A stretch of 63,757 bases of DNA, filler included, from Conidiobolus incongruus B7586 (taxonomy: Eukaryota), in the NCBI GenBank assembly GCA_000697335.1. It is 10 parts of 10 records of this genome, joined end to end, with 100 filler letters (N's around TTAATTAATTAA, not from the genome) between each part and the next. Parts side by side here need not be neighbours in the genome. Positions count along the whole stretch, not along the records: positions 19,845 to 25,940 come from JNEM01000308.1; 9 more parts are not named here. One strand, 5' to 3'. Below are positions 4,004 through 47,800 of this stretch, one piece after another (the stretch's first letter is position 1; each line of letters opens with the position of its first letter). The notes under the pieces were generated by a model. It saw only the letters and a list, made by a program, of their open reading frames with translations, did no database searches and had not been told where the DNA came from. A program made the translations under genes and the position numbers.

Positions 4004-4065
4004 GTGAGAATGCTATGCTGATTTAAGTCAGCTGCTTATTTATTTTAATTAATTTAATATATACC

Positions 4066-4767
4066 ATGAAGGCTTTTATCTACTCTTCTTTTATTGCTTC
4101 TTTGTTTGCCGGCTTTACTCCTGGCCATCCTTACAGTGAAGACGTTTGGCCCGTTGGCACTACCCAGACAATTACATGGAAATGGATTGATAATGAAAAG
4201 GACACCGCTAGCTTCAAGGATATTAAAAAGCTTCAAATTGACTTCATGACAGGTGCTGATGAAAACAATATTTTAATTTCCCCCATTGCTACTCTCGATC
4301 CTTCTGAAACTCAACTCGATTGGAAGATTCCCGATGTTCCCAAAGATGGAAAGATTTATTTCATTCGTCTAACTGGACTTGATGAATCTGGTAAATCAGT
4401 GCAATACAACTGGTCTACCCGTTTTACCATTAAGGGATCTTCTGGTAAACCCACCACCGAGCCCACCACTATCACTAAAACCACCGGTAAGGAGAAGCCA
4501 ACCAGCACTGAAAAAGATAATGATGATGAGAAGACTACTTCGAGTAAAGAGAAACCCACTAAGACCTCCTCTGATAAAGACGAACCTACTTCTACTTCCA
4601 GTTCTGAAACTGAAACCGAAACTGCCACCTCTACTACTAAGGCTAAGACCACTACCACTTCTTCTACCAAATCTTCTTACTCTCCTCAACCCGATTCTGG
4701 AAGCAACGCTTCTTTTGCCGTCTCTGGTCTCTCTTTACTCTCCGCTGCTGTCTATGCTCTCTTGTAA
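4066..4767 (+). CDS. GPI-anchored Ser/Thr-rich cell-wall protein with N-terminal Kre9/Knh1-like Ig-like domain
   Basis: 233-aa ORF: N-terminal signal peptide; ~105-aa domain (W..GTTQTITW ... W.IP ... YFIR ... YNWSTRFTI); S/T/E/K-rich stalk; hydrophobic C-terminal GPI signal (SGSNASFAVSGLSLLSAAVYALL). TATAAAAG at ~3995. Confidence 0.85.
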   Translation: MKAFIYSSFIASLFAGFTPGHPYSEDVWPVGTTQTITWKWIDNEKDTASFKDIKKLQIDFMTGADENNILISPIATLDPSETQLDWKIPDVPKDGKIYFIRLTGLDESGKSVQYNWSTRFTIKGSSGKPTTEPTTITKTTGKEKPTSTEKDNDDEKTTSSKEKPTKTSSDKDEPTSTSSSETETETATSTTKAKTTTTSSTKSSYSPQPDSGSNASFAVSGLSLLSAAVYALL

Positions 4768-5938: not shown

Positions 5939-6337
5939 TTATTTAGGCTTATTATTTAGAATTGTAAATTTAGTGCTCCAATTATAATCAATTGCAACAT
6001 TATTCTTATCATAACTCGTAATTCTGAAAAAGTATAATTTACCATCTTGACTCACTTTAGGCACTTTAAACATTGTATTGTTGGTAGTTGGAGGTAATGC
6101 TGCAATATTGACTAATAGAATATTATCATAATCTGAGCCTGACATGAAATCCACTATAATATAAACGATCTGATCTATTTTCGGTTTGCCTTCTTGATCT
6201 TGCCAACTCCATTCCACTTTTTCCAGAGTATCAGCGTACCATACCGTTTCACTCCAAGGCGTACCAGGAACATAGGTACCATAAATTGACCTTAACAAAC
6301 AAACTATACAAATTGGGAAAATACTTAGGTTTAATAT
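5939..6337 (-). pseudogene. Paralogue of the N-terminal domain of 4066..4767, lacking stalk and GPI tail; no in-frame ATG
   Basis: Shares motifs with the neighbour: PG.PWSE.VW, DFMSGSD.DNILL..IA.L.P, KVP.V..DGKLYFFRIT, YNWSTKFTI. The upstream frame encodes a signal-like LNLSIFPICIVCLLRSIYG preceded by ATA, and a TAA occurs before any ATG. Confidence 0.65.
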
Positions 6338-6801
6338 GATATAAAAATTAATAATAAGAAAATATTATAAAATTCTTTTTTTAAAAAATTATAAATAATT
6401 TCAAATTATCAATTACTAAATAAAGTAATTCAAAATTATTTCTTCAGTGAAATTTTAATCTTAATTAATTATGGTCAAGTAGTGTAAGTTGGTATAAATA
6501 TAGAGTTTTAATCATTCTTATTTATTTAATTCTAATTTAGTAGTATTTTATATAATTTTAATTAGATGGATTTATCTTATATATTGATTTTAATAACTGT
6601 AACTATTCCTTTATTTGATTAAAAAAGATACTTAATTTACTAAAATTTATTTAGTAATAGTGAAAGTAATATGAAAAAAATAATCTTATATAATATTATA
6701 TTATGAAATAATAATAATAATAATAATATAAATTAATATACTACAATTAAATAATTTTTAAATTACAATAATTAAAAAAAAATAAACTGATTTTAATTAT
6801 A

Positions 6802-7852: not shown

Positions 7853-10334
7853 AATATATTTTATTTTATTAAACTGTTTAAGATAATGTTTTAATTTAAT
7901 TATATTTATTTATAAACATTAACTTATTAATAATATATTCTTTAATTCCTTCAAGTAATAATTATTATAAAAGTTTAAAATTTAAGAATAAATTAAATAC
8001 AATGATTTTTTCGATTTATTTTTATTTATTAAACCTTTTATGTTTTCATCTATATATTCTTTAAATATTCCAAGATTATTAAATATTTTTAGTTTATTAA
8101 AAATCCTAATTCTAGACCTTTATATATATATATAGATATATATTTAAAAATTGAACAAGTGTTACATAGTTAAAATTGATTTAAAGTAATTGGCATTCAT
8201 TAATATAGAGAGTAATAGTTAGTTAAAATTAATAAAAAGATTAATTTATTAAATTATTTTTAAAAATACAAAAGTTTAAAAAGTTAGTTAGTGAATATTA
8301 AAATATTAGATTTTATATATTTATTGATAGAATTGGTTATAATATAGGACTTTTATTTTATATTTGATTTCTATTAAATCATTTAATGTTTAGATATATA
8401 TATCAACTTGATCTAACAGCCAATAGGTTAGATTAGTGATAAAACAAATTGGGATTCTAAAAACTAAGTGAATTACCACCAACTCTAAATACAACACAAT
8501 AGGATCAATAAAATATTACTCACTGGATTTAACCTTAGCATATGACAAAAGTCTAAAATCAAAAATACAAGTAAAATCAAAAAGGTAAAGGACCAGATCT
8601 TTTAGTTATATATCACAAATTTAACTGTTTATGTAATGGAAACCCAAAATAATACTTTAAAGTATTTGAAATAATATTTTAGTGATTTAGTAGTTTGATA
8701 TTCAATTATTCATTAGTTAGATAATTTAATACTGTTTCCTAATGCGATTACCAGTATTTAGTATTCAATCTTTGATTATTAAATAAAACAACAAGAATAA
8801 TGATAATTATATAAAGAGAAGTGTATTAAATACTTTTAGTGGCCTAAAATTGGGTAAGGATTAATTGCAAGGCGACTGTGTCCTAACTCAGGGTTTAATT
8901 TAGTAAATAAAAATAGAATTGCTTATGTTAAAGCATTTCACTCATAACGAAGTAACTGTTGTTTAAAATTAATATCAGAACGTCTTAATAAGTTATTAAG
9001 CTAAATAAAAACATGTTTATATATTTTAAAAAATCTCAAAGAAAATATTATCCAAATTATAACAAAATTTAAAAAAAAATTAATAAAATTTTGAAAAAGG
9101 TAAATACCTAATAGATTATATGTTTTATTGAGGAATTATTTTAATTAATTCTATATTTAAGATAGTACTAAAAGGTTTATTATATATATATTTAATAACA
9201 TTTAAAATATATGATTTAATCTTCACCATTTAAACTCGATGAAATTGAGTTTAAAAATTATATTCTAAATAAAATATATTTATTAAAGAGTTAATTATAG
9301 AGGGATTTATGTATTATTTCAAACTCTTTGTTTAATTTATATACATTGTGATTTTAAAGACTGTTAATATATTTAAATAATTAGAAATAAGCAGGCACCA
9401 TTGTTTTTAAAGAAATAACTTCAATTTTAACAAAATACTTATAACTAATTATTTTTACTAATATCATACCTTTGATCAGATAATATATTATAAATTTGCC
9501 TTAATATTTAATATTGTTCATTCAAAAATATAGATAATCATAATTCTTACATTTTATTTGGCTGTTAAGATCATTATAGATTAATATTAATAAAATAATC
9601 AATTAACTGGATATGTTTTCAATACAAACTATAATGTTATATGATTAACTGTTATGAATGATATTATTTAAATTAGTATATCATTGATTGGTAAAGATAT
9701 TATTTCATAAGCTTGAAATCCAATAAATTCTTTATAAAATCAATATATATCACAACACATCAAAAGATTAAAATATTAAATTTAGTGAAATTAATAATTT
9801 ATAAAATATAGCAAATTAATTAAAATCTATTATATAAAATAATCACTAATATATTTAAAATGATTTAAAGATTAAAATGAGCTGAATTAGTATAAATAAA
9901 ATGTTGCCATAATAATATGATCAATTATGTAATTGATGATAACATTAAGGTTAAATATTCAAATATAATTCCAGATATTATTGTAAGATTCAAATTCAAA
10001 ATGGATTATGGCATATTAAAAGTAACAGTTTAGGTTAAATAATTCTTTCAATATATAATTATTTTAAATTAATATATTAAAATAATGATTGATTATTATA
10101 TATTAAAGAGTACTAATGTTTATGATTAGAGTTATACTTAATTAAATTGTTAATTATTTTCATTTGAACTTTTCGTATTAAAAGGTAATTTATTAATATT
10201 GAAAATGAAAAATTTAGTTTAAATAAAAAGATAAAATTTTTATATAGAAATCAATTAATTCAATAATTATAAACCTATTGGCCATCTAAAAGAGATATTA
10301 AATAAATTGAATTTTATTTTTTTAATTAATAGTT

Positions 10335-10862
10335 TTATAGCTTACCCTGTAATTTCTTCAATCTAGAACCTGCAATGAGGACAAAATCTTGGAGGGCTGA
10401 CTTTTTATCAGCTTCCCTATCGTTCCTCTGGATACGCTCACGAATGACGGGGATGATCTGCTCGAAGGTGCGTCCATTCACGAAGATCATGAATTTGAAG
10501 CCGAATTGCTTTTCATACTGATCATTGAGATCGTTTAAGGTCTTGCGGATTTGGATCTGTTCGGGTGTTTCTTTTTGGTTGGCGTAGCCTTGTTCTTTGT
10601 AGGAGTGTTCAGATAAGGATTCTTTGGGAGCGCCGAGACGGGGATGGGCGTTAATGATTTCGATTTGACCTTCTTCGTCAAGGCTATTGATGACTAGAGA
10701 CACTTTGGATAAGAGGTCTTCAAAGCTGGTGAAGGGCTTAAGTTTGAGGAGAGGAGTAATTAAAATGGGGCATGGTTCGAATAAGTTGGAGATAAAACTG
10801 TTGAATTGAGCTTCATCAAATTGGTTGAGTTCTTCAATGGTGGGTACTTTAGTGCTAGTCAT
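10335..10862 (-). CDS. OHCU decarboxylase (2-oxo-4-hydroxy-4-carboxy-5-ureidoimidazoline decarboxylase, urate catabolism)
   Basis: Motifs LFE, INAHPRLG, LS..S..EQ, LN..YE.QFGFKFMIFVNGR, IA.SRL; intronless, 175 aa. Confidence 0.92.
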   Translation of the reverse strand: MTSTKVPTIEELNQFDEAQFNSFISNLFEPCPILITPLLKLKPFTSFEDLLSKVSLVINSLDEEGQIEIINAHPRLGAPKESLSEHSYKEQGYANQKETPEQIQIRKTLNDLNDQYEKQFGFKFMIFVNGRTFEQIIPVIRERIQRNDREADKKSALQDFVLIAGSRLKKLQGKL

Positions 10863-11162: not shown

Positions 11163-12170
11163 ATGACTGATTTAGCCAACACTAATCATTTGCAGATTAC
11201 TAAATTCAAAGCCGCTGTAGTCCAAGCGGCTCCAGTTGTATTTGACCTAGATGCAACACTCCTTAAGTTAAAAGATCTTGCTAAACAAGCAGCCTCTTCA
11301 GGTGCCAAACTAGTTGTATTCCCAGAAGCCTTCTTATCTGGATATCCTAAGGGAACAACCTTTGGAAGCTATATTGGTGGTAGATCTCTAGAAGGTCGCA
11401 AATATTTCGAAAAGTACTACCGTAGTTCCATCGACATTCCTGGACCAATCGTCGATGAGTTGAGCGACTTGGCTAAAGGATTAGATATTTTCTTAGTAGT
11501 AGGATGTATCGAGCGAGGAGGAAATACTTTATACTGCACTATCATCTTCTTTGATCCCGTCAAAGGATTTTTGGGCAAACATCGTAAACTGATGCCAACA
11601 GCTGGAGAAAAATTAGTATGGGGATTTGGTGATGGCAGTACTCTTCCAGTATTCGATACTTCTATTGGTAATTTGGGTGCCGTGATCTGCTGGGAGAACT
11701 ATATGCCTTTAGTAAGAACCCATATGTATCAACAGAATATTCAATTGTATTGCGCTCCCACAGCCGATGATCGTGAATCATGGGTCAGCTCCATGCAGCA
11801 CGTCGCCAAAGAAGGAAGATGCTATGTATTTTCAAGTTGCCAGTACCTCAGAAGGAAGGATTTCCCTGAGGATTACCCCACTTTTATGAGCCAAGAACCT
11901 AATGCTATATATCTGAAAGGAGGCAGTTGTATTGTAAATCCTATGGGAGAAATCATTGCAAGTCCTAACTTCAACTGTGAAGATATTCTATATGCAGATG
12001 TCGATATGTCTGAAATCATTCGCTATCGCTGGGAATTTGATGTAGTTGGTCACTATTCAAGACCTGATATCTTCAAATTATCATCTAACTGTGAGGATCG
12101 CTCCATCAACAAAGGAAAGACTGATGACCAACTTGAAATTGACAGTAGTATTAAGAAATCTAAATTATAG
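11163..12170 (+). CDS. Nitrilase (CN-hydrolase branch 1, NIT4-like)
   Basis: Catalytic triad contexts VFPEAF (Glu), KHRKLMPT (Lys), ICWENYMP (Cys); also WGFGDGSTLPV and FDVVGHYSRPD. First ATG at 11163 (the ORF-track start at 11136 is TTG). Confidence 0.95.
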   Translation: MTDLANTNHLQITKFKAAVVQAAPVVFDLDATLLKLKDLAKQAASSGAKLVVFPEAFLSGYPKGTTFGSYIGGRSLEGRKYFEKYYRSSIDIPGPIVDELSDLAKGLDIFLVVGCIERGGNTLYCTIIFFDPVKGFLGKHRKLMPTAGEKLVWGFGDGSTLPVFDTSIGNLGAVICWENYMPLVRTHMYQQNIQLYCAPTADDRESWVSSMQHVAKEGRCYVFSSCQYLRRKDFPEDYPTFMSQEPNAIYLKGGSCIVNPMGEIIASPNFNCEDILYADVDMSEIIRYRWEFDVVGHYSRPDIFKLSSNCEDRSINKGKTDDQLEIDSSIKKSKL

Positions 12171-12829: not shown

Positions 12830-13173
12830 TATAAGTATTATGACAATTGCTACCTAATTGATACTTTTTCTCACTCTAATTCACTACTAAGGACCTGATT
12901 ATCCAAATCAAACCTTATCAACATTTTACAAATCTATATTTAAGTGACCTTATTGTTACTTAGTTATGCATACTTATACCTATATATTTCACTTAGTTAT
13001 AAGAAAGACATAGAGGGGCTTATATAAATAAAAACCTTTTTGCTTGACTATTAATATATTTTTATTATTATTATTAGTTAATATCTCAATAATGAAGGAT
13101 TTAGTTATTATATATTTCTTAAAGTATTAAGAGACCCACTTCCTTTACTCTTAACTATTGTTATTCATTTACA
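12830..13173 (+). mobile_element. Solo LTR of the Gypsy family at 20197-25809
   Basis: Reverse complement aligns end to end with the 374-bp LTRs (TATAAGTATTATGACAATTGC ... TTGTTATTCATTTACA) with a ~30-nt internal deletion; flanked by TATAT on both sides. Confidence 0.92.
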
Positions 13174-17572: not shown

Positions 17573-20196
17573 TTTAATTTATAAATATTTTAATTTCAGT
17601 TATATTTAGAGATATAAATTCTATTATATATATATATATATTTAAAATTTATTTTAAATAAAATTTTTTAATTATATAATTTTTTTTAATATAATATTTT
17701 TAAAAATTAAATTGATATTTTTAAATTACATAAAGTATATAAAATATTGACTAATAATTTATTAATTATTGACTTTACATTATTCATTTTAATTACTATT
17801 TATCAATAGTTGTCTAAATAATATAATATTGAACTGGAAAATAGAATAATAACTATTAAGGTTAATTGTATATATTGTTCAGTTTTATATTTTTAAAATA
17901 AATAATATAAAATATTAATTCAATAAAAATCTAATTAAACCAAAAAAACTCTCAAGGTACTCTTAATAACTCAAATTATAAAATAACATTTATTCAGAGT
18001 TATTATAATAAGTCTGTAATCACCTACAATATAAATATTGCTATATATCATGGTAGATTATATTATCATCAAATTTGTAAGTCTAACATTATTTTGTTTT
18101 AATAATTACAAGTTGATTTTTCATTAATTTTATTTGTATATCAAACACTTATTTTTTATCATTATTTTAATAAATTGAATTCTATTACATTAAATTTTAT
18201 TGGTTATCCCTTTAAAATTCATGGATTTTTTATAACTCTTTTTTATATTGAATTTTGGATATGTAATTATCAATACATCTTGATAATTGCTTGTAGCTCT
18301 AAAATGGTATAAGTAATACCTTAATCAAATTTAAGATAATATATTATAAAGTTCTTTTAAACCTGATTTTTGATAAAAAATGTAAATCACAGTCCCATAA
18401 ATAAATTTTAGGTCAATTTTATTTTCAATTCAATCCCAAAATATCTATCACAGTATCAAACCATTTAAATAATATTCAATTAATATGCTCAGGTTCAAAA
18501 TTGAATCAAGTTAATACTCTCATTGATCGTTAGATAAAATTGTCAATTTTTTTAACATCAAAGATTTTATTCATGTATTCAATTTATCTTGACCAAATTG
18601 TAATTATAAAAATAATTTATGAATCTGTAAAGTACACTGATTTCAAGGTTTAATTAAAAGTTAATTGTAAAATATTATAACTTTAAAAATTTGAATTCAA
18701 AAGTTAGTTTAATACAATTTAGCTTAACCTCTAATTTAAAATTTGAAAATATTATCAAACCATATATAATTAGAAGCAAATTCAATATCGAATCATAGTC
18801 ATAAATTTGAGCCTAAACTTGGTAAAAATATAAATTAAGTAGAATTGATATCTATATTGTGTAATACATAATTGAGTTTTAAAAATATTATATTGTTTTA
18901 AATTTGCTTAATAATATAAAATGGAAAATATTTTAATTTGTAATATTTCAAAGATATAGTTAGACTTAGAATATATAATATACTTAAAACTAATAAAAGA
19001 AAACATTTTTATATAAAATATAACATTCTCGCCTATGATATTTTTTAATAAAAGTATTTTATAATTCAAAAATTTAATGATGAATTTAATTTTGCTTAAA
19101 CTAAATTACCATTTTCTAAAATTTGCTATGTTTGTATTATTCAAACTTAATCACAATCTGTTCAAATTATTTAAATTTTATAAACAAATTATTAAGGAAA
19201 TATTTTATTCCAAATTACCATTCATCAATCAGCTTGTTATTTTAAGCTTATAATGGAAATTGTTTTAAATTTGTCAAAGCTTAGAAAATAATTTTTTATT
19301 AATATTTTGTTTATGAATTAAAAACATTTTAATGTTTATTATCATTTTCTCAATATTGCAGATCACACTTTATTTAATATATAAAAATGTAAGATAAATG
19401 ATTTTAAAATTAATATATCATTAAAAGATTAGATTAACTTTATTTTAATAAACTAACTAAAAACCAATAATTAGATAGAAAACTAAATTTCTTATATTTT
19501 ATATTTATGATTAAGATGGTTAAGTTTAGTATAGATCATTTTTTATAGATGCTTATTGTCAAAGACCCTATTTCAAACTGAATATTAGTAATTATAATAT
19601 ATTATAATATTAATAGTTTTTTATTTAATTTTTTAAATTAATTAATTTAATTTGCTATTTTTTTTTCAAATAAAATAATTTTAAATTGGTCTTATTAATA
19701 TAATAATTGATTTTATTGATTTGAATAATAATAATATGATTTAANNNNNNNNNNNNNNNNNNNNNNNNNNNNNNNNNNNNNNNNNNNNTTAATTAATTAA
19801 NNNNNNNNNNNNNNNNNNNNNNNNNNNNNNNNNNNNNNNNNNNNAAATAACCAACTTTAAAAAATTAATTTTTTAATCAAAAAAATATAATATATAAATA
19901 TATATAATTGGATAATATATAATCCTTAATATATTTTATTTATATCTATTTTTTTAAAATTAATAATATTTTGAAAAATCAAAAATTAAAAAATTTTCTA
20001 TTAATTTAAATTTAAGAAATATTATTATTTGAACTTTTTAATCAAATTATTATTAAAATACAAAAATTGTGATTTTATATAGAAATATTTATAATTAAAT
20101 TTTATAGATTATATTTAAATATTAAGTATTATCTTTCTATTTATAATAAATAATACCAAAATATCAATAAAATATAATTAAAAATATTATAATATA

Positions 20197-20570
20197 TGTA
20201 AGTGAATAACAACAGTTAAGGGTAGAGGAAGCAGGTTTCTTAACATTTTAGGAAATATATAATAACTAGATCCTTTAGTATTGAGGTGCTAATTAATAAT
20301 AATAAGAAATATATTAATAGTTAAGCAAAAGGTTTATTTATGTAAGAAGTAATATAAACTAAAGTTTTAACTAAAGAGAAGAATCTGAGTCTTTTTTATA
20401 GCTAAGTGGAATATATACACATAAATATATAAGGCTAAATAATAGTAAAGTTATTTAAATATAAAGATTTGTAAAATGTTAATAAGATTTAATTTAGATA
20501 ATTAGGTTTTTAGTAGTGAATTAAAGTAAGGAAAGGTATCAATTAAATAGCAATTGTTATAATACTTACA
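20197..20570 (-). repeat. 3' LTR
   Basis: TGTAAGT...ACTTACA inverted termini; adjacent to the polypurine tract. Confidence 0.95.
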
Positions 20571-23500
20571 CCCCCTCTAAACTATATTAAACTATTAGCA
20601 TAGTCTTACTCCCTTTAATCTTCTTGATATAAGATAAGTAAGTGTAAATGTCTTTAATCACCTTAAGTGGTTCTTAAGTTAACTCAGAATTAAAATAGCT
20701 TAATCACTTTACAAAATAATAAGGTTTTCTATATTTTGTTTTATATGTAAAAATTTCATTAACATAATATTCTTTATCCCTTTAATTATTAATAATAGGT
20801 AATAGAGGTGCTTTAAAATTTTAATTAGGAAACTTGTTTTTGGGATAATAGTATGGTTTTAACAATAAGGTATAGAAAACTAAATAATATTTATAAGTTT
20901 TTAGTAACTTTAATTCAAAATTTCCAGGTTTAAAGCTTGTTTTAAGGATATACAATAGTTTAATCTAATATAGTAAAAGCTTTTGATTTGTATTTTTTCT
21001 AGATATTTACTTAGTAAAAGGTATATCTGTTATATCTAAAAGGACTAAAGACTTAGATTTATATTTAGATAAAGCTTTATAGAATTTTAAATAATAATTT
21101 TTATTGTATATTTGTTTCAACTTAGTTGATTCTGAAATTATTTGGTGGATTAATTCAAATCTCTCTAATTTTTCTATGATAAACTTATTGGTGATAATAT
21201 CCAAGTTAAGGTTAATTAATAAGTTAGGTAATTATCTATAATTTATAAAATAGGGAGTTAAACTATTAAACTAATTAATTAAATTATTATAGGTAAATTA
21301 TAAATAAAGTAAGAAAGATTCCTAATTATTTTAATTAAAGTTAATGTAATTTCTAACCATCTTTTTTAAAGCTTTAATGACTTTTTTAACTAGTTTATTT
21401 GATTAATAATGGTAAATAATACTGAGCTTTATATTAATATCTATACGTTATATAAAAGCTTTCTAGAATTTTAAAGTAAATTTAAGGTTTTTATTAGTAA
21501 TAATAGTAATAAATAATCTATATAATAAATTCACTTTTTTAATTAATAAGTTAGCTATTTTAAATACTATAATTATTTTATAGGTAGGAATAAAATAAGC
21601 AAATCTGCTGTATAAATGAATAACTAGTAAAATATTATCATAGCTTTTTTTTAACTTAGGTATTTTTATAAAGTTGAGTTGTATTTAAGCTTAAGTTTTA
21701 AATAGTAAAGATAAGGAATTTAATTTATCAACTACCTTTTTTATATGGTATTTATTTCTTTAACAGCTATTATAAGATTTGTAATAGCTTTTTATCAACT
21801 TAATTAATTTTACTACATAATATTTTACTTGAATTTTATTAATAAGTTGATTCTAACTTTAATGTCCATTTAACTTATAGTTGTGATATTGTTTTAAAGT
21901 CTTTAATTAAAGGTTAAAAACTTTTAAAATATATAATTTATCATGTTTATATAACAAACCATTTAATATTTAGAATTCTTTATATTCAAAAAGTTTTTTC
22001 TTATTATTCTCTTCTATTTTAACTTTAATTATCAAATAAAAGTTATCACATTATAGTTTTTCTTTTAAAACCTAATAAAAGTCTTCATTATTTAAGGTGA
22101 TAATTTTTAAGCTAGTTTTAATTAGTTTATTATATTTATTACATATTAATATATAGATTAGATTTTTATTCAATATATCTACAACCTTATTTTACTTACT
22201 AAGAAAGTATTTAATTAAGAATAAATACTTTTAGATAATTTTTATCCATTAAATTTATTTTTTAAATAGATACTTTTGTCAATTCAAGTAAATTAATGAT
22301 TTATAATTGTTTAAGCATAAAAACTCTTGATGAAATAACTAAAAACTAAACTTTTTATGATTTCTACTAATGTAAGCATTTTTTACTTAAATACAAGATA
22401 ATTTTATTTAGTAGGTGTTAATTTTCTAAACTAGAATGTTAAAGGTTTTAGATTTAAATACTTAAAAACCTTTTGGTGCTTGGTTACCCTTTTTAAAGTT
22501 TTAGAGTGGTTATACTTTTTAAAATCTTCAATAATTTTGCTTTGTGCTATTTAACTACCTATAGTATAAACAAACATATCTATGAACACAATTACTAATA
22601 ATTTAAGGTTGTATATAGCAAGTATTGAAGTTATAGCAATTTTGTAAATTAGTATATAAAAAGAAAATGTTTCATTAAGGGTTTAAGTAAATAGTTTATC
22701 TTTCTTTAATAAATTAGATATAAAACTAATAAGCTTAGTAAACACAGGAATATAATCTTTAAAATATATAACTAATCTTAGAAAAGTTACTATATGATGT
22801 TTATTAGCAAGGATTATAGTGTTATATAATTTTTAAAAGTTTTGCTAGATTAATAGAAATTCCTTTAGAAGAGATAATATAACTACAAAATAAAATACAT
22901 GAAGTAGCAAAAACATATTTAGAGAATTTTATTGGCAACTAATTTTAGTTAAGTATTTGTAAAATAATCTTTATATTCAGAATATAATTATTTAAAGTCT
23001 TTGAATAAATTAAGATGTTGTTTAAGTAACACACAATAAAATCATTATAATACTTGCTAAATAAACTATTTATAAGTTTTATAAATATAACAGGTATGTT
23101 ATAGAATTTAAAATTTATAACTTTAAACTTATAATGCTTGAATATACAACTAAAAGCAGTTAAAGGGATACTTTATTCATCAACTAAGATATTATAATAG
23201 TTGTTCTTAAGATTTATTTTAGTAAAGTAGTTTACACCTATAAATCTATCTTTAATTTTATTTAAATTAAGTAAAGGAGTTTTATCTTTAATTGTTTTAC
23301 TATTAAAAACTCTATTATTAATTTAAAATTACTAACCTCTATTATGTTTTTTAACAAAAAAAAACTAGTGAACTTTAAGGGTTTGTAAAAGGTTATATAA
23401 AACCTAATTCTAATAGCTTGTTTATTTCTTCACAAAGAATTTTATATTATTTAAAAAAATGTGATAAGATAATTTGTGATAAAATTAAGTGTTAAGTAAC

Positions 23501-25435
23501 AGTTTGATTTTATAAGACATATTTTTTTTAGTGGTAAAGTGGTTAAAACTTTAAAAACATTTCTGTATTTATTAACAACCTTATACAATAGATTTTTAAT
23601 ATCTAAGGCATTTTTTAAATCTTTTAAAAAAATATAGTGTCAAAATTAATATAAATTATATTAGATTGATTTTTTAACTTTTTAATTAAATTCACAAAAG
23701 ATATTATTGAAATTATTACATTATTAAAAAAGGTATTATTAGTACCTTCTTTTATATTAGAATTAGTTATTAGCTTATAACTTAAACTATTATAGCAAAA
23801 TAAAAAAATATGTTTATTAAATAAACTTTTATTTATGATAATTAGATAATGCTTCTAAAACCAACTAAAACTTATAATAATATTATATTTTACAAAACCT
23901 ATTATAGATTAGATTCTTTTAAAATAACCTATCACCAATAAAATATTATAATATAAAAATCCTTTGGTAGTTTATTATGTATTATTTATATAATTCAATA
24001 TCATATTCATTTAATTATAAGATAATTTAAATCTCTTAATAACATCTTTATTAATAAATATATTATTATATTTAGAGTTAAATAGGAAAAAAATAAGGTA
24101 TTTGTTTAGAGTACCTTTGAAGATTTATAAGGAACATAACTTATTTTCATTAGGATCTAATAAATAAGAGTTTAAATAGATATTACTCTTCTTCTCTAAT
24201 GAATTTTAAAATAATTTTTAGTTATTTAAATATAATTTCAAGGGTTTATTATAAAGAGTTTTTGACAAAGATTTCTCTTTATTATTTTAACTATATTAAG
24301 TTAAATTTAAACTAGATTAATTATTAATCTGTTGATTACTTTCTTTATTATTCATTTGAATATCATTATTTAATATTATATCACTAAAGTTTTTACTATT
24401 AAATAGTTTCTTGGGATATTTATTCTAATAGTAATCTATATTAATTTGTCTATAATAGAAGTATTTTTTATTCCTTCTTAAGTATAATTTCTCTTTTTTA
24501 ATTAAATACTCTTTTTTCTATATTGTAGATATATTTATAATATTAAGATTAAATGATTTAGATGGGGAATTATTAAAGCTTGTATAGAGACTCTTATTTA
24601 TTTCTTTAATATAATTCCAATTGTTTTTTACCTTAATAGCTATTTTAGTTAAAGTAACAAAACTAGCTATTTTTATATTAATCTTAGAGTAAACAACTAT
24701 AAAAATATTAGGCTTGAGTTTTCTCTTAAACCTATTTTTCTTTTTACCTTTAAATAAGTTAAGAATCTTTAATTTAAGCTAGGTAAATTATTCTACAAAA
24801 TCTTTAATTGAAGATTTCTAAGAAATCCTTGCTAGCTTATTTTAAGCTAGAGTAACTATATCTGATAGGTAAAACCTCTGCTTAATTGCTTGTTTGAATT
24901 AGTTAAATGTTTAGATCCTATTAGGATAAAAAGAACTACTAGTAAAATTAAGTATGTCTTTTAAGTGTTTATATCACTAAAGTTTAATATAAGAGGTTAA
25001 TTTAGAAGCTGAAATTTTTATTAAATTATTTAAATCTAGAGTTTTAATTTCTTCAAGGAATTTGGTTAGTTTGTCTAAAAATACTTCTAGTTTTTTAGGA
25101 GGTTTTGAGTTATTATAAGTAATTAGGTTATTTGCAAAGAACTTAACTTTGTTAAAGCTTCTTAAAGTGGATAATAAATCTCTATGACTATTTAATTCAG
25201 TTATTATTTGTTATATATAATTGATTTGCTAGGTTTACTTTAATTTCAATCTATACTTAATAAAGGTACTATTAATATTGATAAAATCTAATTAACTAAT
25301 AGAATAATAGTTATTGTTACTAAAACTTTAAATGTTTATTTTATTTTAATTATATATAAAACAATAGGTTATAATTATAAAATCTTTAATTATAACAATA
25401 AAAGTACTTTTAAATCTTCTTAATTATTGCTATTA

Positions 25436-25809
25436 TGTAAGTAAATAATAATAGTCAAGGGTAAAGGAAGCAGGTTTCTCAATATCTTAGGAAATATATA
25501 ATAACTAAATCCTTTAGTATTGAGGTGTTAATTAATAATAATAAGATATATATTAATAGTTAAACAAAAGGTTTATTTGTATTAGAAGTAATATAAGCTA
25601 AAGTCTTAGCTAGAGAGAAAAATCTGAGTCTTTTTTATAGCTAAGTAAAATATATACATATAAGTATATAAAGTTGAATAATAATAAAGTTACTCAAATA
25701 TAAGGATTTATAAAATGCTGATAAAACCAAATTTAGATAATTAAGTCTTTAGTAGTGAATTAGAAAGAGGAAAAGTATCAATTAAGTAGTAATTGTTATA
25801 ATACTTACA
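25436..25809 (-). repeat. 5' LTR
   Basis: Same length and termini as the 3' LTR; followed on the minus strand by TAATAGCAAT, readable as a G>A-decayed TGGTAGCAG-type primer-binding site. Confidence 0.95.
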
Positions 25810-41834: not shown

Positions 41835-44800
41835 TATTTTATAATTTTTTAATATTAATTAAAAATAAAAGATTTTTTTATGGCTAAAAAATGCTTATAT
41901 AGTAAGATATCTTTTTATTATTAAGTATGACTAATATATTTTCAACAAACTTTGGTTACCTAATATAATCAAAATTGGCTGATTCGAGTTGAATAATCAA
42001 ATGACAAGTTCTCAATCTCCATTCCACAGGATTTTCAAATCCACTGATTGTAATCATATTCAATCCATTCGAAGGTATACAAAAACACTTCAAACTGTGG
42101 GGAAAGGATAAAAAAACCTGAGTTTGAGATTCAATATTATCTCATCAAAAACATCAATAGAGTTTATTTTGGATATAAATACTTATAACTATATTTATTA
42201 GTAAGAATTTATGGAATAATTGATACACTTTAAAGCGTATAAACAATTTTTCCATATTTGAATTAAAAATTTAATTTTTATGATTATTTAAAATTTTACC
42301 AGATAAAATAATTAGAATATTAAATATAACTTTAAAACTATCAGAAGATTATTATAAATATTAGACAAGAATATATTAGATTATAAAGGAAATAATTATT
42401 ATATTATTAAAATTATTAACTTGCATTTTTCCATTTATTAATCTTTTGTTTTTCACCCTTTATTTTAACAATCAACAATATCAATTATAAGAATATTCCA
42501 CTAATTTTCTTATTTAATTCGAGAAAATTTTATATGAAAATTGAAAAAGAAATATTATTAATAATATATATTGAATATTAAATATTAAATACAATATTCA
42601 TCCATTATAATTATTTATTTCTTTTGTGAAAATTTATTAGTTTGATTAATAAATAATACTTATATTCATTCAAAAACAACCTAACAAATATGAAATTTAA
42701 TGATAATATCATTAATTTTGAATACCTTAATTATGATAATTCAAAACATGTTATATATAACCAATAGTCACTATCACACTATTATTCCTATATTAATAAA
42801 TTTTCATTTAAACATCCAAAATTATTTCAGTTTAAAATATAAGTTAATTGTGTTAAATTTAAAATTATCTTTAACTCTCAATTATATTAACCTCGCTTTA
42901 AAACTTCTATACCAAGAAAATAACTTAATATTATCCTTAATCATTATTACAATTAATTTAACAGTTAATTGAAATTAGAAAATACTATTTTGATCATTTT
43001 ATATTATTGTTAAAATGTTTACTCAATATATAAGTTTCTCCATAAAGTTCAGAATATTAACTTATTTTTTATCAATTAAAGTGGATTTGAATATTTTCTA
43101 AAAAAAATTTTAATTATACATAAATTATAAGTTATTCATTATAAAAATAAATTATTATTTAATATTAATAAAATATTTTTTAAAAAAAATTAAATCATAA
43201 TTTATATTATTTTAAAATTAGTACTCTTTTTCTCTAAAAAGAATATAATAGAGAAACTATTCTTTACTATCCACCTAATTTTCAAAATATTCCTAAAAAA
43301 AACAAATAATCTTATACCTTTCCATCTCGAATTCAAAATCAATTATGTTTAAATTAAAAATCCAAATTAATATAAATATTTTACCATTAAATAAATAGTT
43401 TTATACTAAAATATGCTAAAGCATATTTTCACTCAAATAATAATATTGAATTATATATAATTTTCAAATGTAAGTTTGGTTAAAATGATATAATATTATC
43501 ATACTTGAATATATACAAATTATTATTAATTAATTAAATTGTAAAATGTCAACTATTGATTGTATATGATAATAATAGCTGGACTAAATTAGATCAAAGC
43601 GGTTTATTAAATTTTAAATAACTTGGTAATTATTATAAAAATTAACCTATAGTATAATTATAATCACCACAATTTTAATACCCCAGCTTTTTGAAATAAA
43701 ATACCGAAAATGCATGGATTATTAATGACACACATATAATTAATTAATTGAGAAAGAGTTTATACTTTATAAGTATTATCATTTGATATTTAAACATTGT
43801 TTATTTTAAAAGATTTGTTTATAATGGATTTTGTTATTTGTTCACATTATTTCAAAGATGTAGATCAATACTTGATATTGTTAATATTGGACATTTTATA
43901 AAAAGTGCTCAAAATTGTGATTGATTAAAATTGAACTTAATGATATTTTTAATGGGAAATCGGAATTATCAAGTTTTTTTTATATTAAAATATAAACTAT
44001 ACATTTGATAATATTTACTATAAAATATTAATCAAAAATAAATATATCAAATTACGAGTTTATTGATTAAATCTTGATATAAATTGATTATTTTATTATA
44101 ATTATAAACTCCATAGTTACTTTTCTATGTTGATTTAGTCAAAAATTAATTAATTGCAATTATTCAAAATTTAATTAATAAAAAAATAAACTGTAAATAA
44201 ATGAATATTACAAATAATAACAACAATTATAATAGTAACTTAGTACAGTCACTCATATTTATTAGAAATTTTCTTTTATATTCTCTTTAATATAATTATC
44301 ACCAAAATATCTATTAGTTTGATAAAGCCTAAACTAATATAAAAAACAAAAATACTAATAATAATTATAATCAACATTATTAATAGTATGAATTTATTTA
44401 GGAATTTATTATTTAAAAAATAATAAACTAATATATCAAAACCATTAATTATATATTAATTAGTTATAAGTTATTATTACTATTAAATTACCAACAAAAA
44501 AAGACTGAAGAAAAGTTTAAATATATTATTAAACAGTATAATTAAAATAGATAGATATCTCCAATCAAAACTATATTTGAATAAAATTAATTTTATCACT
44601 ATCACCTTAGTTTGTAGACTATGGACTGAGCTATTCTTCCAAGTTTATATATTTTACCTAAAAACTATATTTCTAGCAAATATAAAAATCCAATATAATA
44701 TTCCAACTATCAAACAATTAATTAAATAATAAAGATATTATTAAAACCAAATAAATTTGAGTTAATCTTTAATTTAGGAAGTTATTAATAATATTTTTTA

Positions 44801-47800
44801 AAAATATTAAATAAATAAAAGAATATTATAACTATCAGGATTTTATATATAATTTCAATCTTTATGTTAATTAAAAATATTAAAAATATAGNNNNNNNNN
44901 NNNNNNNNNNNNNNNNNNNNNNNNNNNNNNNNNNNTTAATTAATTAANNNNNNNNNNNNNNNNNNNNNNNNNNNNNNNNNNNNNNNNNNNNTATATATAT
45001 ATATTATTTACAATATATAAATATATATTAATTATTAAAATTTAATTAATAATTAATCTTATTTTGTCTTTTATGTTTATTATTTTTTGGTTTTAATTTT
45101 TAATATTAGTTAATTGATTTTTTTATATTAAAAATAGAGAATAATTATAATTGTAATATCTTATTTTTATAATTGGTATTAACTTTAATTATAACTCCTA
45201 TTTATTATTGATTTGATATAATATAAAATATTAAATGTTTGTATTTAAGCCTTAATTTAAAATCTCAAATGGCGTTATTTTCAAAAAACCAGTCTATGAA
45301 ATTCAGTCTCAAAATCTAGTTTATGGAGCTTTGAAAAGACATTTGAATAGTATATATTTCTTTTTAGAGCTATATATTGCTTTCTCTATGATTAAAAAGA
45401 AATTTAATATCAGATTTTTAGTAAAACTTTAATCGAACTAGAGTTTACATGATTCTCACTATTCTGGCTTTATTATTATATCTAAGACAGATTGTTAATA
45501 ATCTAACCTATTCTTGTAATATGAGATCAAAAATATAGTCAGAATTTATCTTATTTTACTAAGAATGACAATTTCGTGTTTAATCTATACTGTTTAAAAT
45601 TAAATACTATTCTAAAATATTATGAAATATTTTGCTGAAAGTTATAGTTTATCAGGGCTTTGATTAAATATAAAGAGGTGTGCTCAAAACCAGTAAAAAT
45701 TCTGGAAATAATAATGCAGATTATTTATACTATTTTGAGAATAATGTACTCATATCTAGTTTCATTCGGTAAAATAGTGATACATGCATTCATTTGAAGA
45801 TCCTGGTTCTACCTCATCAATCTAATTACTTGGCATTACATCGGATATTTTTAGTACATATTAATATAACTATATTAATTAAAGTTTGACAATTTTGAAA
45901 TTACTGAATATAGCAATTTTCATAATGAATATTATGTTGGGCTTGTAAGACGAGTAACTTGAAATACCCCCACTTAATGAACCTATAATATAATTCTAGA
46001 AAATTAGTTGTACAGTTTTAAGAATTTCCAAATAGTTGCCCCAAATTAAAAAAAAATACACAAATTGAATTATAATTTCAAAAATTATTCTTGTTAAAGA
46101 TATAATGAGGGCAGAAAGTATTTAAAATTCTATCATAATATGAACTTGTTAAAATTGATATTATTGAGTTGAATCGTGTAATAAGAAACAATTAAAAACT
46201 ATATTCTATTTACACTGAAATGTATAATTAATATAATATTAATCAATTAAATAAAATTTTAATCATTAATAATTTTATTGAATAGTTGAAATATTGTTTT
46301 TTAAATTATTTTTCAAAAGGATGAGTTAATATACTGATATTTTAATGGCATCAAAGTTGTCATTATAAGTGAATATGATTACTTTGATATATTGATTTAA
46401 AATCAAATTATGAATTAATCGAGTACGAGGGTATTGATATTCTTAAATTCACGATTCAATCTGGAGATAATATCGTTTCCACTTGCCATATTTTAATGTT
46501 TTGGATTGTAATAAGTATTTTATGGTATTATTAAAATATAACCTATGATTTTAGATTTATATATATTATTCCATCACACCATTCAACTATTAACGAGGAC
46601 AAAGAAAATATTTAATAATTTGTAAAATTAATCTAAATTTGAAATATGTTAGATTTCATCTCATTTCAATTAAATTTTGACCAATCATAATAGATTATTC
46701 GTGAGTCCTTTTATTAATGAAAAAATCATTAAATTGTTAATAAAAAGATAAAAAATTAATTTTAATTAAATTATTTAATTATATTAATCATTTTATTAAA
46801 TATTTTCAAATATAAAGATACATTTTGAATCCACCAATAATGACTTAATTATATATTAATTGGATAATGGTATATTGATCAAATATATATGACTTCTCTT
46901 ATTGGTTAAAATATAGTAATATGAATATAAAATGTACCATTATCTTTGAAAATATTAAATACTAGATTAATGATAATTTGGATAAATTTAAAAACTGTCA
47001 TTGAATCAATTGTAAATGTATCAATTAAAAATTGACAGCATTTGATGCACCTTTATTTATCAAATTGATTCTTTGTGATAATTGATAACATTGCATTGAT
47101 TGTAGTTATCAATAGTAACAAATTTTGCAATTGAAAAAGATTCAGCATTGAGTATTATAATAAGAATTCTGAATCTCATAAGTCTTATTCAAAATTTATT
47201 TAATTTATTTATATTTAACATCCAATCATAATATTTGGTTAAGGTTTAAAGTTTTTATATAAATTATTAATATTCATTATAAATAACGCTCTTTTATCAT
47301 ATCAAAAAATATATAATAATCTTGAATAATAAAGTTGAACATATCAAAAACTCTTATATAAAATAGCAGTAACAAATTTAATTATGATTAGGCGAAGAAA
47401 TACGGTAAAATCGACAAAAATAGAATAATAAAATTATTTCATCCTGTAAGATTAGAGAATTATTTTATTTAAGCTGTGTGTATTCATAATATAAAATTTA
47501 AGGAGCTTAATTAACAATCGTTGGAATTCACCAATTAACCAAAGGGTTTCAAATCAATGACTTCATTCACATATTTGCTCTCCCCTTCAACCAATTGCAA
47601 CGAAAATAAAAATGTAGCTAAACCCAATATTTCCGTTAGCCATAATAGTAGAACAATCAAATCAACGTTGTTATAAACAACTGTAAAATATTAAATAAAC
47701 TTGATTAAAAGAATAGTAATCTGGTTTCATTCTTGCTATTTCTCATCATTAATCAATCATTCATTATTGAAGCAATCATGCAATTTAATTGGCAGCTACC

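What the first reader, a model, noticed from the sequence alone, without database searches (positions are those of the whole stretch)
20197..25809. RIP-like C>T/G>A hypermutation of a structurally intact Gypsy element in an apparently non-Dikarya fungus
Seen: the LTRs have identical length but many substitutions. The first 8 differences (~55 nt) are all transitions, and 6 are CpA/TpG>TpA (AACAACAG vs AATAATAG; GTCAAG vs GTTAAG). Each copy retains C/G where the other lost it. Catalytic codons decay the same way (YLDD>YLNN as AAC AAC; Trp>TGA/TAA), and I found no CpG in the element. Known: RIP (RID-dependent, CpA-biased) is characterised in Pezizomycotina. Inference: a repeat-targeted deamination process acts here and may explain the extreme AT richness; if the host is a zoopagomycete, the mechanism may be RID-independent.
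Basis: partly seen in the sequence, partly recalled or inferred. Interest (0 to 1): 0.7.

Follow-up and report, generated by a model that had tools for sequence, protein, structure and literature searches.

The report
RIP-like transposon mutation without RID, Conidiobolus
A dead retrotransposon in a Conidiobolus-related (zygomycete-grade) fungus has lost about half of its conserved cytosines to C-to-T change, including nearly every CpG and two thirds of fixed CpA sites, while host DNA shows no such CpA loss; this likely comes from transposon-targeted DNA methylation and would be a RIP-like defence in a lineage that likely lacks the RID enzyme.

Summary
20197-25809 is a full-length chromoviral Ty3/Gypsy copy (374-bp LTRs, ATATA target duplication) whose coding is dead. 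The LTRs differ at 47 sites, 43 of them transitions, but over the whole LTR CpT (25) outnumbers CpA (16), and one CpG remains. Against an intact relative, conserved C/G positions went to T/A in 117 of 233 cases and A/T to G/C in 1 of 246. Loss runs CpG (~all) > obligate CpA 20/30 > CpY 22/62, so CpG deamination alone cannot explain it. Host non-coding DNA shows no CpA depletion (o/e 1.08 vs 0.68). A solo LTR of the family lies 660 bp from a nitrilase 72% identical to Conidiobolus coronatus, so the host is a zoopagomycete, not an ascomycete contaminant. C. coronatus is listed with DNMT1 and DIM-2 but no RID. Best reading: cumulative, methylation-coupled, RID-independent C>T decay of repeats (0.62). 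Premeiotic pairing-triggered RIP is not shown (no strand clustering). The process does not explain the genome's AT richness. RIP-index hints in Entomophthorales are in print; alignment-level evidence in Conidiobolus was not found in my searches.

The parts
20197..20570 (-). 3' LTR of the element (374 bp)
   Evidence: TG...CA ends, 87.4% identical to the other LTR
25436..25809 (-). 5' LTR (374 bp)
20192..20196 (+). target-site duplication ATATA, left copy
   Evidence: AT-rich flank makes a 5-mer match easier by chance
25810..25814 (+). target-site duplication ATATA, right copy
20571..20578 (-). polypurine tract (AGAGGGGG on the minus strand) next to the 3' LTR
   Evidence: sequence
25428..25435 (-). 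probable primer-binding site, TAATAGCA; looks like TGGTAGCA (initiator-Met type, motif recalled, from no call) after two G>A changes
   Evidence: inference
20573..24040 (-). dead pol: protease, RT (YLDD>YLNN at 23028), RNase H, integrase, chromodomain; 51 stops and 6 frameshift steps in 1152 aligned codons
   Evidence: 42% identical to intact P0273
24041..25427 (-). presumed decayed gag region; no CpG, CpA o/e 0.55; no family hit
   Evidence: position inferred
12830..13173 (-). solo LTR of the same family (344 bp, TATAT on both sides, terminal CA read as TA, 0 CpG) on the contig that holds the Conidiobolus-like nitrilase
   Evidence: 75% over 376 nt, 262 bits vs at most 51 in 8 shuffles
11163..12170 (+). 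host nitrilase used as taxon marker and as unmutated neighbour (24 CpG, 41 expected)
   Evidence: 72% identical to C. coronatus KXN67146.1

Best explanation
This is a dead chromoviral Ty3/Gypsy copy in a Conidiobolus-related fungus whose cytosines have been converted to thymine on both strands in the order CpG > CpA > CpT/CpC, most likely because the host methylates its transposons with DNMT1 (CpG) and DIM-2 (non-CpG) and the methylated cytosines are then deaminated and fixed, likely without RID. Shown: element identity, host group, direction, size and context of the changes, and that host non-repeat DNA lacks the CpA/CpG signature. Inferred: that this species has the DNMT1+DIM-2, no-RID set listed for C. 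coronatus; that these cytosines were methylated; that the changes built up over many rounds on both strands. The CpA rate (about 50 times the C>A rate at the same sites) is high enough that an enhanced, DIM-2-linked mutator like the mitotic one of Zymoseptoria tritici is likelier than passive decay alone.
For: Direction: 295 of 666 mismatched codons are reachable from the intact relative by C>T/G>A only, 29 by the reverse, 11% in 300 shuffles. Conserved fixed positions: C>T 117, C>A 5, C>G 5 of 233; T>C 1, T>A 5, T>G 2 of 246. Context: obligate CpA 20/30, CpR 55/74, CpY 22/62, obligate CpC 20/67; CpG 1 vs 50 expected; 3' purine OR 5.6 (p=7e-9), 5' pyrimidine OR 3.1 (p=3e-4), strand not significant (p=0.35). 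Repeat restriction: composite RIP index +0.55 on this contig vs -0.27 to -0.58 on the 9 others; the solo LTR has 0 CpG beside a gene with 24. Family-wide: in run X1, 414 of 450 C and 519 of 551 G positions vary to T/A against 101 C>A and 121 G>T. LTR ts/tv 10.8 vs 2.8 in wheat TEs (PMC2996936; p=0.005). Enzymes: C. coronatus DNMT1 1, DIM2 1, DNMT4/RID 0, DNMT5 0 (PMC12344493 supplement row). Phycomyces, with DNMT1 and DIM2, methylates LTR elements in CG and CHH (PMC11258239). Dim2 drives mitotic C>T at CA in Z. tritici (PMC8016269).
Against: No genome was held, so no methyltransferase gene of this species was seen, and no methylome exists among my calls. The enzyme list is for a relative 72% identical at one gene. 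The ancestral state comes from one relative (P0273) at protein level only; its DNA was not found. CpY loss (22/62) is not above the upper bound of what strong genome-wide AT bias could give (0.31; p=0.26), so only the CpG and CpA excess is firm. Some LTR transitions are probably new T>C changes: in 23 of the 40 listed rows this copy has C/G where most other contigs have T/A, and several fit back-change. In Z. tritici the Dim2 mutator spares CG, unlike here. A kingdom-wide k-mer screen classes C. coronatus 'no_rip'. Runs X1-X4 are one sample, possibly the window's source, so not independent.
Confidence: 0.62

Rival explanations
1. True RIP-type process: duplications are recognised by homologous pairing in the sexual (zygospore) stage and mutated in bursts, by DIM-2 or by a RID-like enzyme missed in the gene lists.
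For: Size and direction are RIP-like. DIM-2 can mediate RIP without RID in Neurospora (bioRxiv 2021.04.05.438447 abstract). Laid family contigs are mostly under 95% alike (3519 of 4834 in X1). C. coronatus has 0 repeat hits of 1 kb or more at 95-100% but 555 at 80-95% (assembly collapse could also cause this). Z. radicans scores 24.2% by RIP index (PMC11105155).
Against: One round of RIP gives single-strand clusters (PMC7296669); neither LTR shows strand runs (p=0.33, 0.83) and loss is even along pol on both strands. CpG, not CpA, is the top target. The solo LTR at about 75% identity is similarly depleted. Many rounds would erase clustering, so this is not excluded.
Confidence: 0.2
2. Ordinary neutral decay in a very AT-biased genome plus passive CpG deamination; no special non-CpG targeting.
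For: Host non-coding DNA falls to 8-13% GC. RCY sites lost only 11 of 52, compatible with AT bias (p=0.07). CpY loss is within the upper bound.
Against: Obligate CpA (Gln, His, Cys, Trp, Met codons) cannot have been CpG and lost 20 of 30, above even the upper bound of 0.31 (p=6e-5). Host non-coding CpA o/e is 1.08, and 1.0 in windows under 13% GC. A/T positions are 97% kept (238 of 246), so the copy is not simply old.
Confidence: 0.08
3. A cytidine deaminase (APOBEC/AID-like) with a 5'-pyrimidine preference edits the element's DNA.
For: 5' pyrimidine raises loss (YCR 54/65 vs RCR 21/36, p=0.009; YCY 31/70 vs RCY 11/52, p=0.012). Coding-strand G loss is slightly higher (70/122 vs 47/111).
Against: Editing during reverse transcription should hit one strand (established knowledge, recalled); the strand term is not significant once context is fitted (p=0.35), and both LTRs lost C and G after insertion. 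Complete CpG loss points to methylation. No deaminase gene was looked for.
Confidence: 0.06
4. The contig comes from an ascomycete contaminant with canonical RIP.
For: The element lies on its own small contig in a linker-joined assembly; I did not lay the runs on host genes; the longest element pieces have lower depth (5-17 in X1) than contigs matching the flank (20-47).
Against: A solo LTR of the family is on the same contig as the Conidiobolus-like nitrilase. About 15-44 contigs cover each listed site. The only named ascomycete hit to the intact relative is at 34%.
Confidence: 0.03

Closest known systems
RIP of Neurospora crassa and other Pezizomycotina (RID; DIM-2-dependent branch)
   Same: Repeat-restricted, directional C>T/G>A; CpA strongly hit; stops at Gln/Trp codons; positive composite RIP index
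   Different: CpG is lost first and completely; no strand clustering seen; RID absent from the closest listed relative; sexual-stage timing and pairing trigger untested
Dim2-dependent mitotic C>T mutator of Zymoseptoria tritici (PMC8016269)
   Same: DIM-2-type enzyme in the lineage, repeats targeted, CpA hit far above background, no need for a sexual stage
   Different: There over 98% of changes are at CA and CG is spared; here CpG > CpA > CpY; host is outside Dikarya; shown there by experiment, here only by comparison
CpG>TpG decay of methylated TEs in DNMT1/Masc2 fungi (Microbotryum, rusts, Tuber; PMC4352252) and TE methylation in Phycomyces (PMC11258239)
   Same: CpG erased in TEs; DNMT1 (with DIM-2 in Phycomyces: CG and CHH on LTR elements)
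   Different: PMC4352252 ties CpA/CpT signatures to RID-bearing ascomycetes; here obligate CpA falls by two thirds in a lineage listed without RID
RIP-index signal in Zoophthora radicans and other Entomophthoraceae (PMC11105155)
   Same: Same order; RIP-like dinucleotide shift
   Different: That was an index over 1-kb windows in giant genomes, with no alignment, direction or context; in the passages I read no value was given for Conidiobolus
Chromoviral Ty3/Gypsy retrotransposons (Ty3-G; intact relative P0273/P0123)
   Same: PR-RT-RH-IN-chromodomain order, TG...CA LTRs, 5-bp duplication, PPT
   Different: This copy is coding-dead; the next relatives beyond P0273 are 40% or less identical to it

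Membership tests
Chromoviral Ty3/Gypsy | RT-RNase H-integrase order with similarity to Ty3 | tested here: met
   Ty3-G Gag-Pol E=6.5e-30; collinear with P0273
Chromoviral Ty3/Gypsy | C-terminal chromodomain | tested here: met
   P0123 carries PF00385 and the element aligns to its C-terminus; no direct Pfam hit on the decayed copy
Chromoviral Ty3/Gypsy | LTRs with TG...CA, target duplication, PPT | tested here: met
RIP (Neurospora type) | Directional C:G>T:A excess, ts/tv well above 2 | tested here: met
   43/4; 117/233 vs 1/246
RIP (Neurospora type) | Confined to repeated DNA | tested here: met
   one family only, 9 host contigs as control
RIP (Neurospora type) | CpA as the main target | tested here: not met
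   CpG about all lost > CpA 67% > CpY 35%; CpA is only the top non-CpG target
RIP (Neurospora type) | Single-strand clusters per round | tested here: inconclusive
   no clustering, p=0.33 and 0.83; many rounds would hide it
RIP (Neurospora type) | RID (DNMT4) gene present | not testable with these tools
   no genome held; C. coronatus listed with 0
RIP (Neurospora type) | Premeiotic timing and homology-pairing trigger | not testable with these tools
   needs crosses or zygospore progeny
5mC-coupled TE decay (DNMT1/DIM-2) | CpG depletion confined to TEs | tested here: met
   o/e 0.02 vs 0.56 non-coding and 0.66 coding; one CA/TG column pair marks a former CpG
5mC-coupled TE decay (DNMT1/DIM-2) | 5mC present on the copies in CG and CHH context | not testable with these tools
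   no methylome available
5mC-coupled TE decay (DNMT1/DIM-2) | DNMT1 and DIM-2 genes in the host | not testable with these tools
   listed for C. coronatus only
Conidiobolus sensu lato host | Host proteins closest to Conidiobolus; element family physically linked to them | tested here: met
   rests on one named marker gene (nitrilase); calcipressin look-up was uninformative

The most novel reading that the evidence does not exclude
Conidiobolus has an active, RID-independent, DIM-2-driven repeat mutator (signature YpCpR: CpG > CpA > CpY) that is the ancestral form of RIP, so repeat-directed mutagenesis predates Dikarya and is missed by k-mer screens in AT-rich genomes.
Probability: 0.3. Interest if true: 0.8.

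Novelty: new variant of a known kind. Interest (0 to 1): 0.52.

Why it matters
A 2025 kingdom-wide screen concludes that RIP-like signatures are confined to Ascomycota and scores C. coronatus 'no_rip' (PMC12543289), while a 2024 paper saw an index signal in Zoophthora and asked for deeper validation (PMC11105155). Codon-anchored counts here show strong non-CpG C>T loss in a transposon of a Conidiobolus relative, a lineage listed with DIM-2 but no RID. That screen needs AT-rich k-mers to be twice as common in repeats as in non-coding DNA, which can hardly happen where non-coding DNA is already about 85% AT. If DIM-2 is the mutator, a culturable zygomycete offers a direct test of whether repeat-directed mutation is older than RID and whether it needs sex.

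Tried and rejected
No whole genome was held, so RIPCAL on all copies and a DNMT search were not possible. DNA of the intact relative P0273 was not found in metagenome or viral contigs, nor the locus of the nitrilase relative, so no DNA-level ancestor and no neutral host control from a sister genome. Pfam sees almost nothing on the decayed frames (Integrase_H2C2 only). The OHCU decarboxylase relative carries a Bacillus MAG label; I rejected it as a taxon guide because the neighbouring nitrilase cluster contains C. coronatus. The element's flanks match host contigs no better than shuffles. Atlas look-ups gave no taxon. Strand-run tests were negative. CpA vs CpT in the LTR pair alone is not significant (p=0.25). 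No tRNA gene in the window to check the primer site. The 2019 fungal methylome survey (doi 10.1038/s41559-019-0810-9) is not held; its tables may include Conidiobolus methylation data that bear on the mechanism and on novelty. The right end of the element contig was not covered by the laid runs.
Full report
Setting. The window is ten small contigs joined by N44-TTAATTAATTAA-N44 linkers; the element fills most of one of them (19845-25940). No whole genome was held.

Observation. The LTRs (20197-20570, 25436-25809) are both 374 bp, begin TG, end CA and are flanked by ATATA. They differ at 47 sites: 43 transitions and 4 A<->T transversions. The left copy keeps C/G at 22 sites and the right at 21. 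Per available site, CpA varies at 15 of 27, CpT at 24 of 59 and CpC at 2 of 15; CpA against CpT is not significant in this small sample. The element has 1 CpG against about 50 expected. YLDD reads TAC TTA AAC AAC.

What the element is. The minus strand matches Ty3-G Gag-Pol (E=6.5e-30). A search of 1.84 billion representatives gave one close intact relative, P0123 (42% identity, E=2e-112; next hit E=1e-34). Its longer cluster mate P0273 aligns over 1152 codons from protease to chromodomain, with 51 stops and 6 frameshift steps in this copy; the first three steps lie in a poorly conserved linker and may be alignment noise. It is a chromoviral Ty3/Gypsy element, whole at its ends and dead in its coding. 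It belongs to a multi-copy family: four runs of one sample give about 15-44 contigs at each of the 40 listed sites, and most laid contigs are under 95% alike (which covered 5476 of the contig's 6096 bases: the left LTR and most of the interior). Those runs may be the window's own source.

Host. The nitrilase at 11163-12170 has as best named hits C. coronatus (66%) and Neoconidiobolus thromboides (66%). The top hit's cluster holds C. coronatus KXN67146.1, 72% identical to the window protein. So the host is a Conidiobolus relative but not C. coronatus; this rests on one named marker. A solo LTR of the family (12830-13173; 75% over 376 nt; 262 bits against at most 51 in 8 shuffles) lies 660 bp beyond that gene on the same contig. 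This ties the family to the host and removes the contaminant reading. It has 0 CpG (4.7 expected) while the nitrilase has 24 (41 expected).

Direction and size. Using plain BLOSUM62 for the alignment, 295 of 666 mismatched codons can be reached from the intact residue by C>T/G>A alone, 29 by T>C/A>G, and 11% (maximum 14%) in 300 shuffles. I then counted only bases fixed by the residue, at the 335 of 1152 positions conserved in at least half of 41 distant homologs, dropping codons whose other fixed bases had changed in another way. C/G went to T/A in 117 of 233, with 10 transversions; A/T went to G/C by transition in 1 of 246, with 7 transversions. The results at thresholds 0 and 0.8 agree. In the family, 414 of 450 C and 519 of 551 G positions show T/A in some contig, against 101 C>A, 121 G>T, 328 of 2148 A>T (saturated, so a lower bound, and AT-rich chance matches add noise).

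Context. Cytosines that had to be CpA in the working ancestor (Gln, His, Cys, Trp, Met codons) are lost in 20 of 30; CpR in 55 of 74; CpY in 22 of 62; obligate CpC in 20 of 67. A 5' pyrimidine adds to this: YCR 54/65, RCR 21/36, YCY 31/70, RCY 11/52. In a logistic fit 3' purine has OR 5.6, 5' pyrimidine 3.1, and strand is not significant. The three LTR copies rank the same way (CpA 0.43, CpT 0.31, CpC 0.24). CpG deamination alone is therefore excluded. Against my reading: if the host's neutral equilibrium is 8% GC, AT bias alone could remove 13% (upper bound 31%) of cytosines over this age. CpA exceeds that bound (p=6e-5); CpY does not (p=0.26). Some differences are also new T>C changes, including probably the single CpG.

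Repeat restriction. The composite RIP index is +0.55 on this contig and -0.27 to -0.58 on the other nine. Host non-coding DNA has CpG o/e 0.56 and CpA 1.08; the element contig 0.02 and 0.68. Host windows under 13% GC have CpA o/e 1.0, and the flanks (7.7% GC) 1.06. So the process is confined to the repeats seen here, and it does not account for the host's AT richness: the element, at 19% GC, is still richer in GC than its surroundings.

Mechanism. Shown: a two-strand, repeat-confined C>T process ranked CpG > CpA > CpT/CpC. Inferred: methylation is the cause. C. coronatus is tabulated with one DNMT1, one DIM2, no DNMT4/RID and no DNMT5 (PMC12344493, one supplement row and passages). Phycomyces, which has DNMT1 and DIM2, methylates LTR elements in CG and CHH (PMC11258239, passages). 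In Z. tritici a working Dim2 raises the mitotic mutation rate more than tenfold, with C>T at CA (PMC8016269, passages). DIM-2 can also carry RIP without RID in Neurospora (bioRxiv 10.1101/2021.04.05.438447, abstract). The LTR ts/tv of 10.8 is well above 2.8 in methylated wheat TEs (PMC2996936, passages), and CpA loss runs about 50 times the C>A rate, which suggests more than passive decay. One round of RIP leaves single-strand clusters (PMC7296669, passages); none is seen in either LTR, and loss is even along pol. I therefore put cumulative DNMT1+DIM-2-coupled mutation at 0.62, RIP proper at 0.2, neutral AT bias plus CpG decay at 0.08, a deaminase at 0.06 and contamination at 0.03.

Novelty. 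RIP-like signals outside Dikarya are already proposed from an index in Z. radicans (24.2%), with stated caveats (PMC11105155, passages). A 1,239-genome screen finds the signature only in Ascomycota and scores C. coronatus 'no_rip' (PMC12543289: abstract, sections 8-9, supplement rows); the same supplement lists 0 repeat hits of 1 kb at 95-100% identity but 555 at 80-95%. PMC4352252 (passages) links CpA/CpT signatures to RID. Searches listed no alignment-based study of TE mutation in Conidiobolus; I saw listings only for most hits, and the 2019 methylome survey was not held. I also read passages of PMC13297926, PMC7862722, PMC12387763 and bioRxiv 10.1101/2023.01.30.526367, which added nothing on Conidiobolus methylation. 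Three earlier AI notes of this scan describe a similar pattern in Dimargaritales and Endogonales; these are unchecked leads, not support.

Verdict. A real and strong RIP-like signature in a zoopagomycete, best filed as a new variant of methylation-coupled repeat mutagenesis and not as RIP proper. It rests on one family in one genome, with the enzymes inferred from a relative. Interest 0.52.

Noticed in passing
window 12830-13173: Solo LTR of the same family with a 30-nt deletion, TATAT on both sides; both insertions sit in (AT)n-rich DNA with the same 5-mer, hinting at a target preference.
   Followed up: yes
window 11163-12170 and 10338-10862: Intronless nitrilase next to an OHCU decarboxylase; after Conidiobolus/Neoconidiobolus the named hits are bacterial (55-62%), so possibly an old horizontal transfer.
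   Followed up: no
P0002, P0439: Proteins clustering with Conidiobolus-type genes are deposited under a Bacillus cereus MAG label, likely fungal contamination of that MAG.
   Followed up: no
window 19845-20027: Left flank draws very high summed depth (about 6800 vs 700-1000 inside the element) with many loose ends at 20002-20017; a short high-copy repeat or AT-rich chance matches; no better than shuffles against host contigs.
   Followed up: partly
window 4027-4767 and 5939-6364: Two neighbouring similar-looking genes on opposite strands; the first hits Kre9_KNH; an old duplicate pair with no RIP-like index.
   Followed up: no
window 8101-8700 and 44101-44850: CpG-free 600-bp windows with weakly positive RIP index; may be further decayed repeats.
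   Followed up: no
P0273 / P0123: An intact, open-frame relative of the family exists in an unnamed JGI record, so working copies persist in some organism.
   Followed up: partly
window linkers (e.g. 19745-19844): Contigs are joined by N44-TTAATTAATTAA-N44, so gene order across these joints is artificial.
   Followed up: yes
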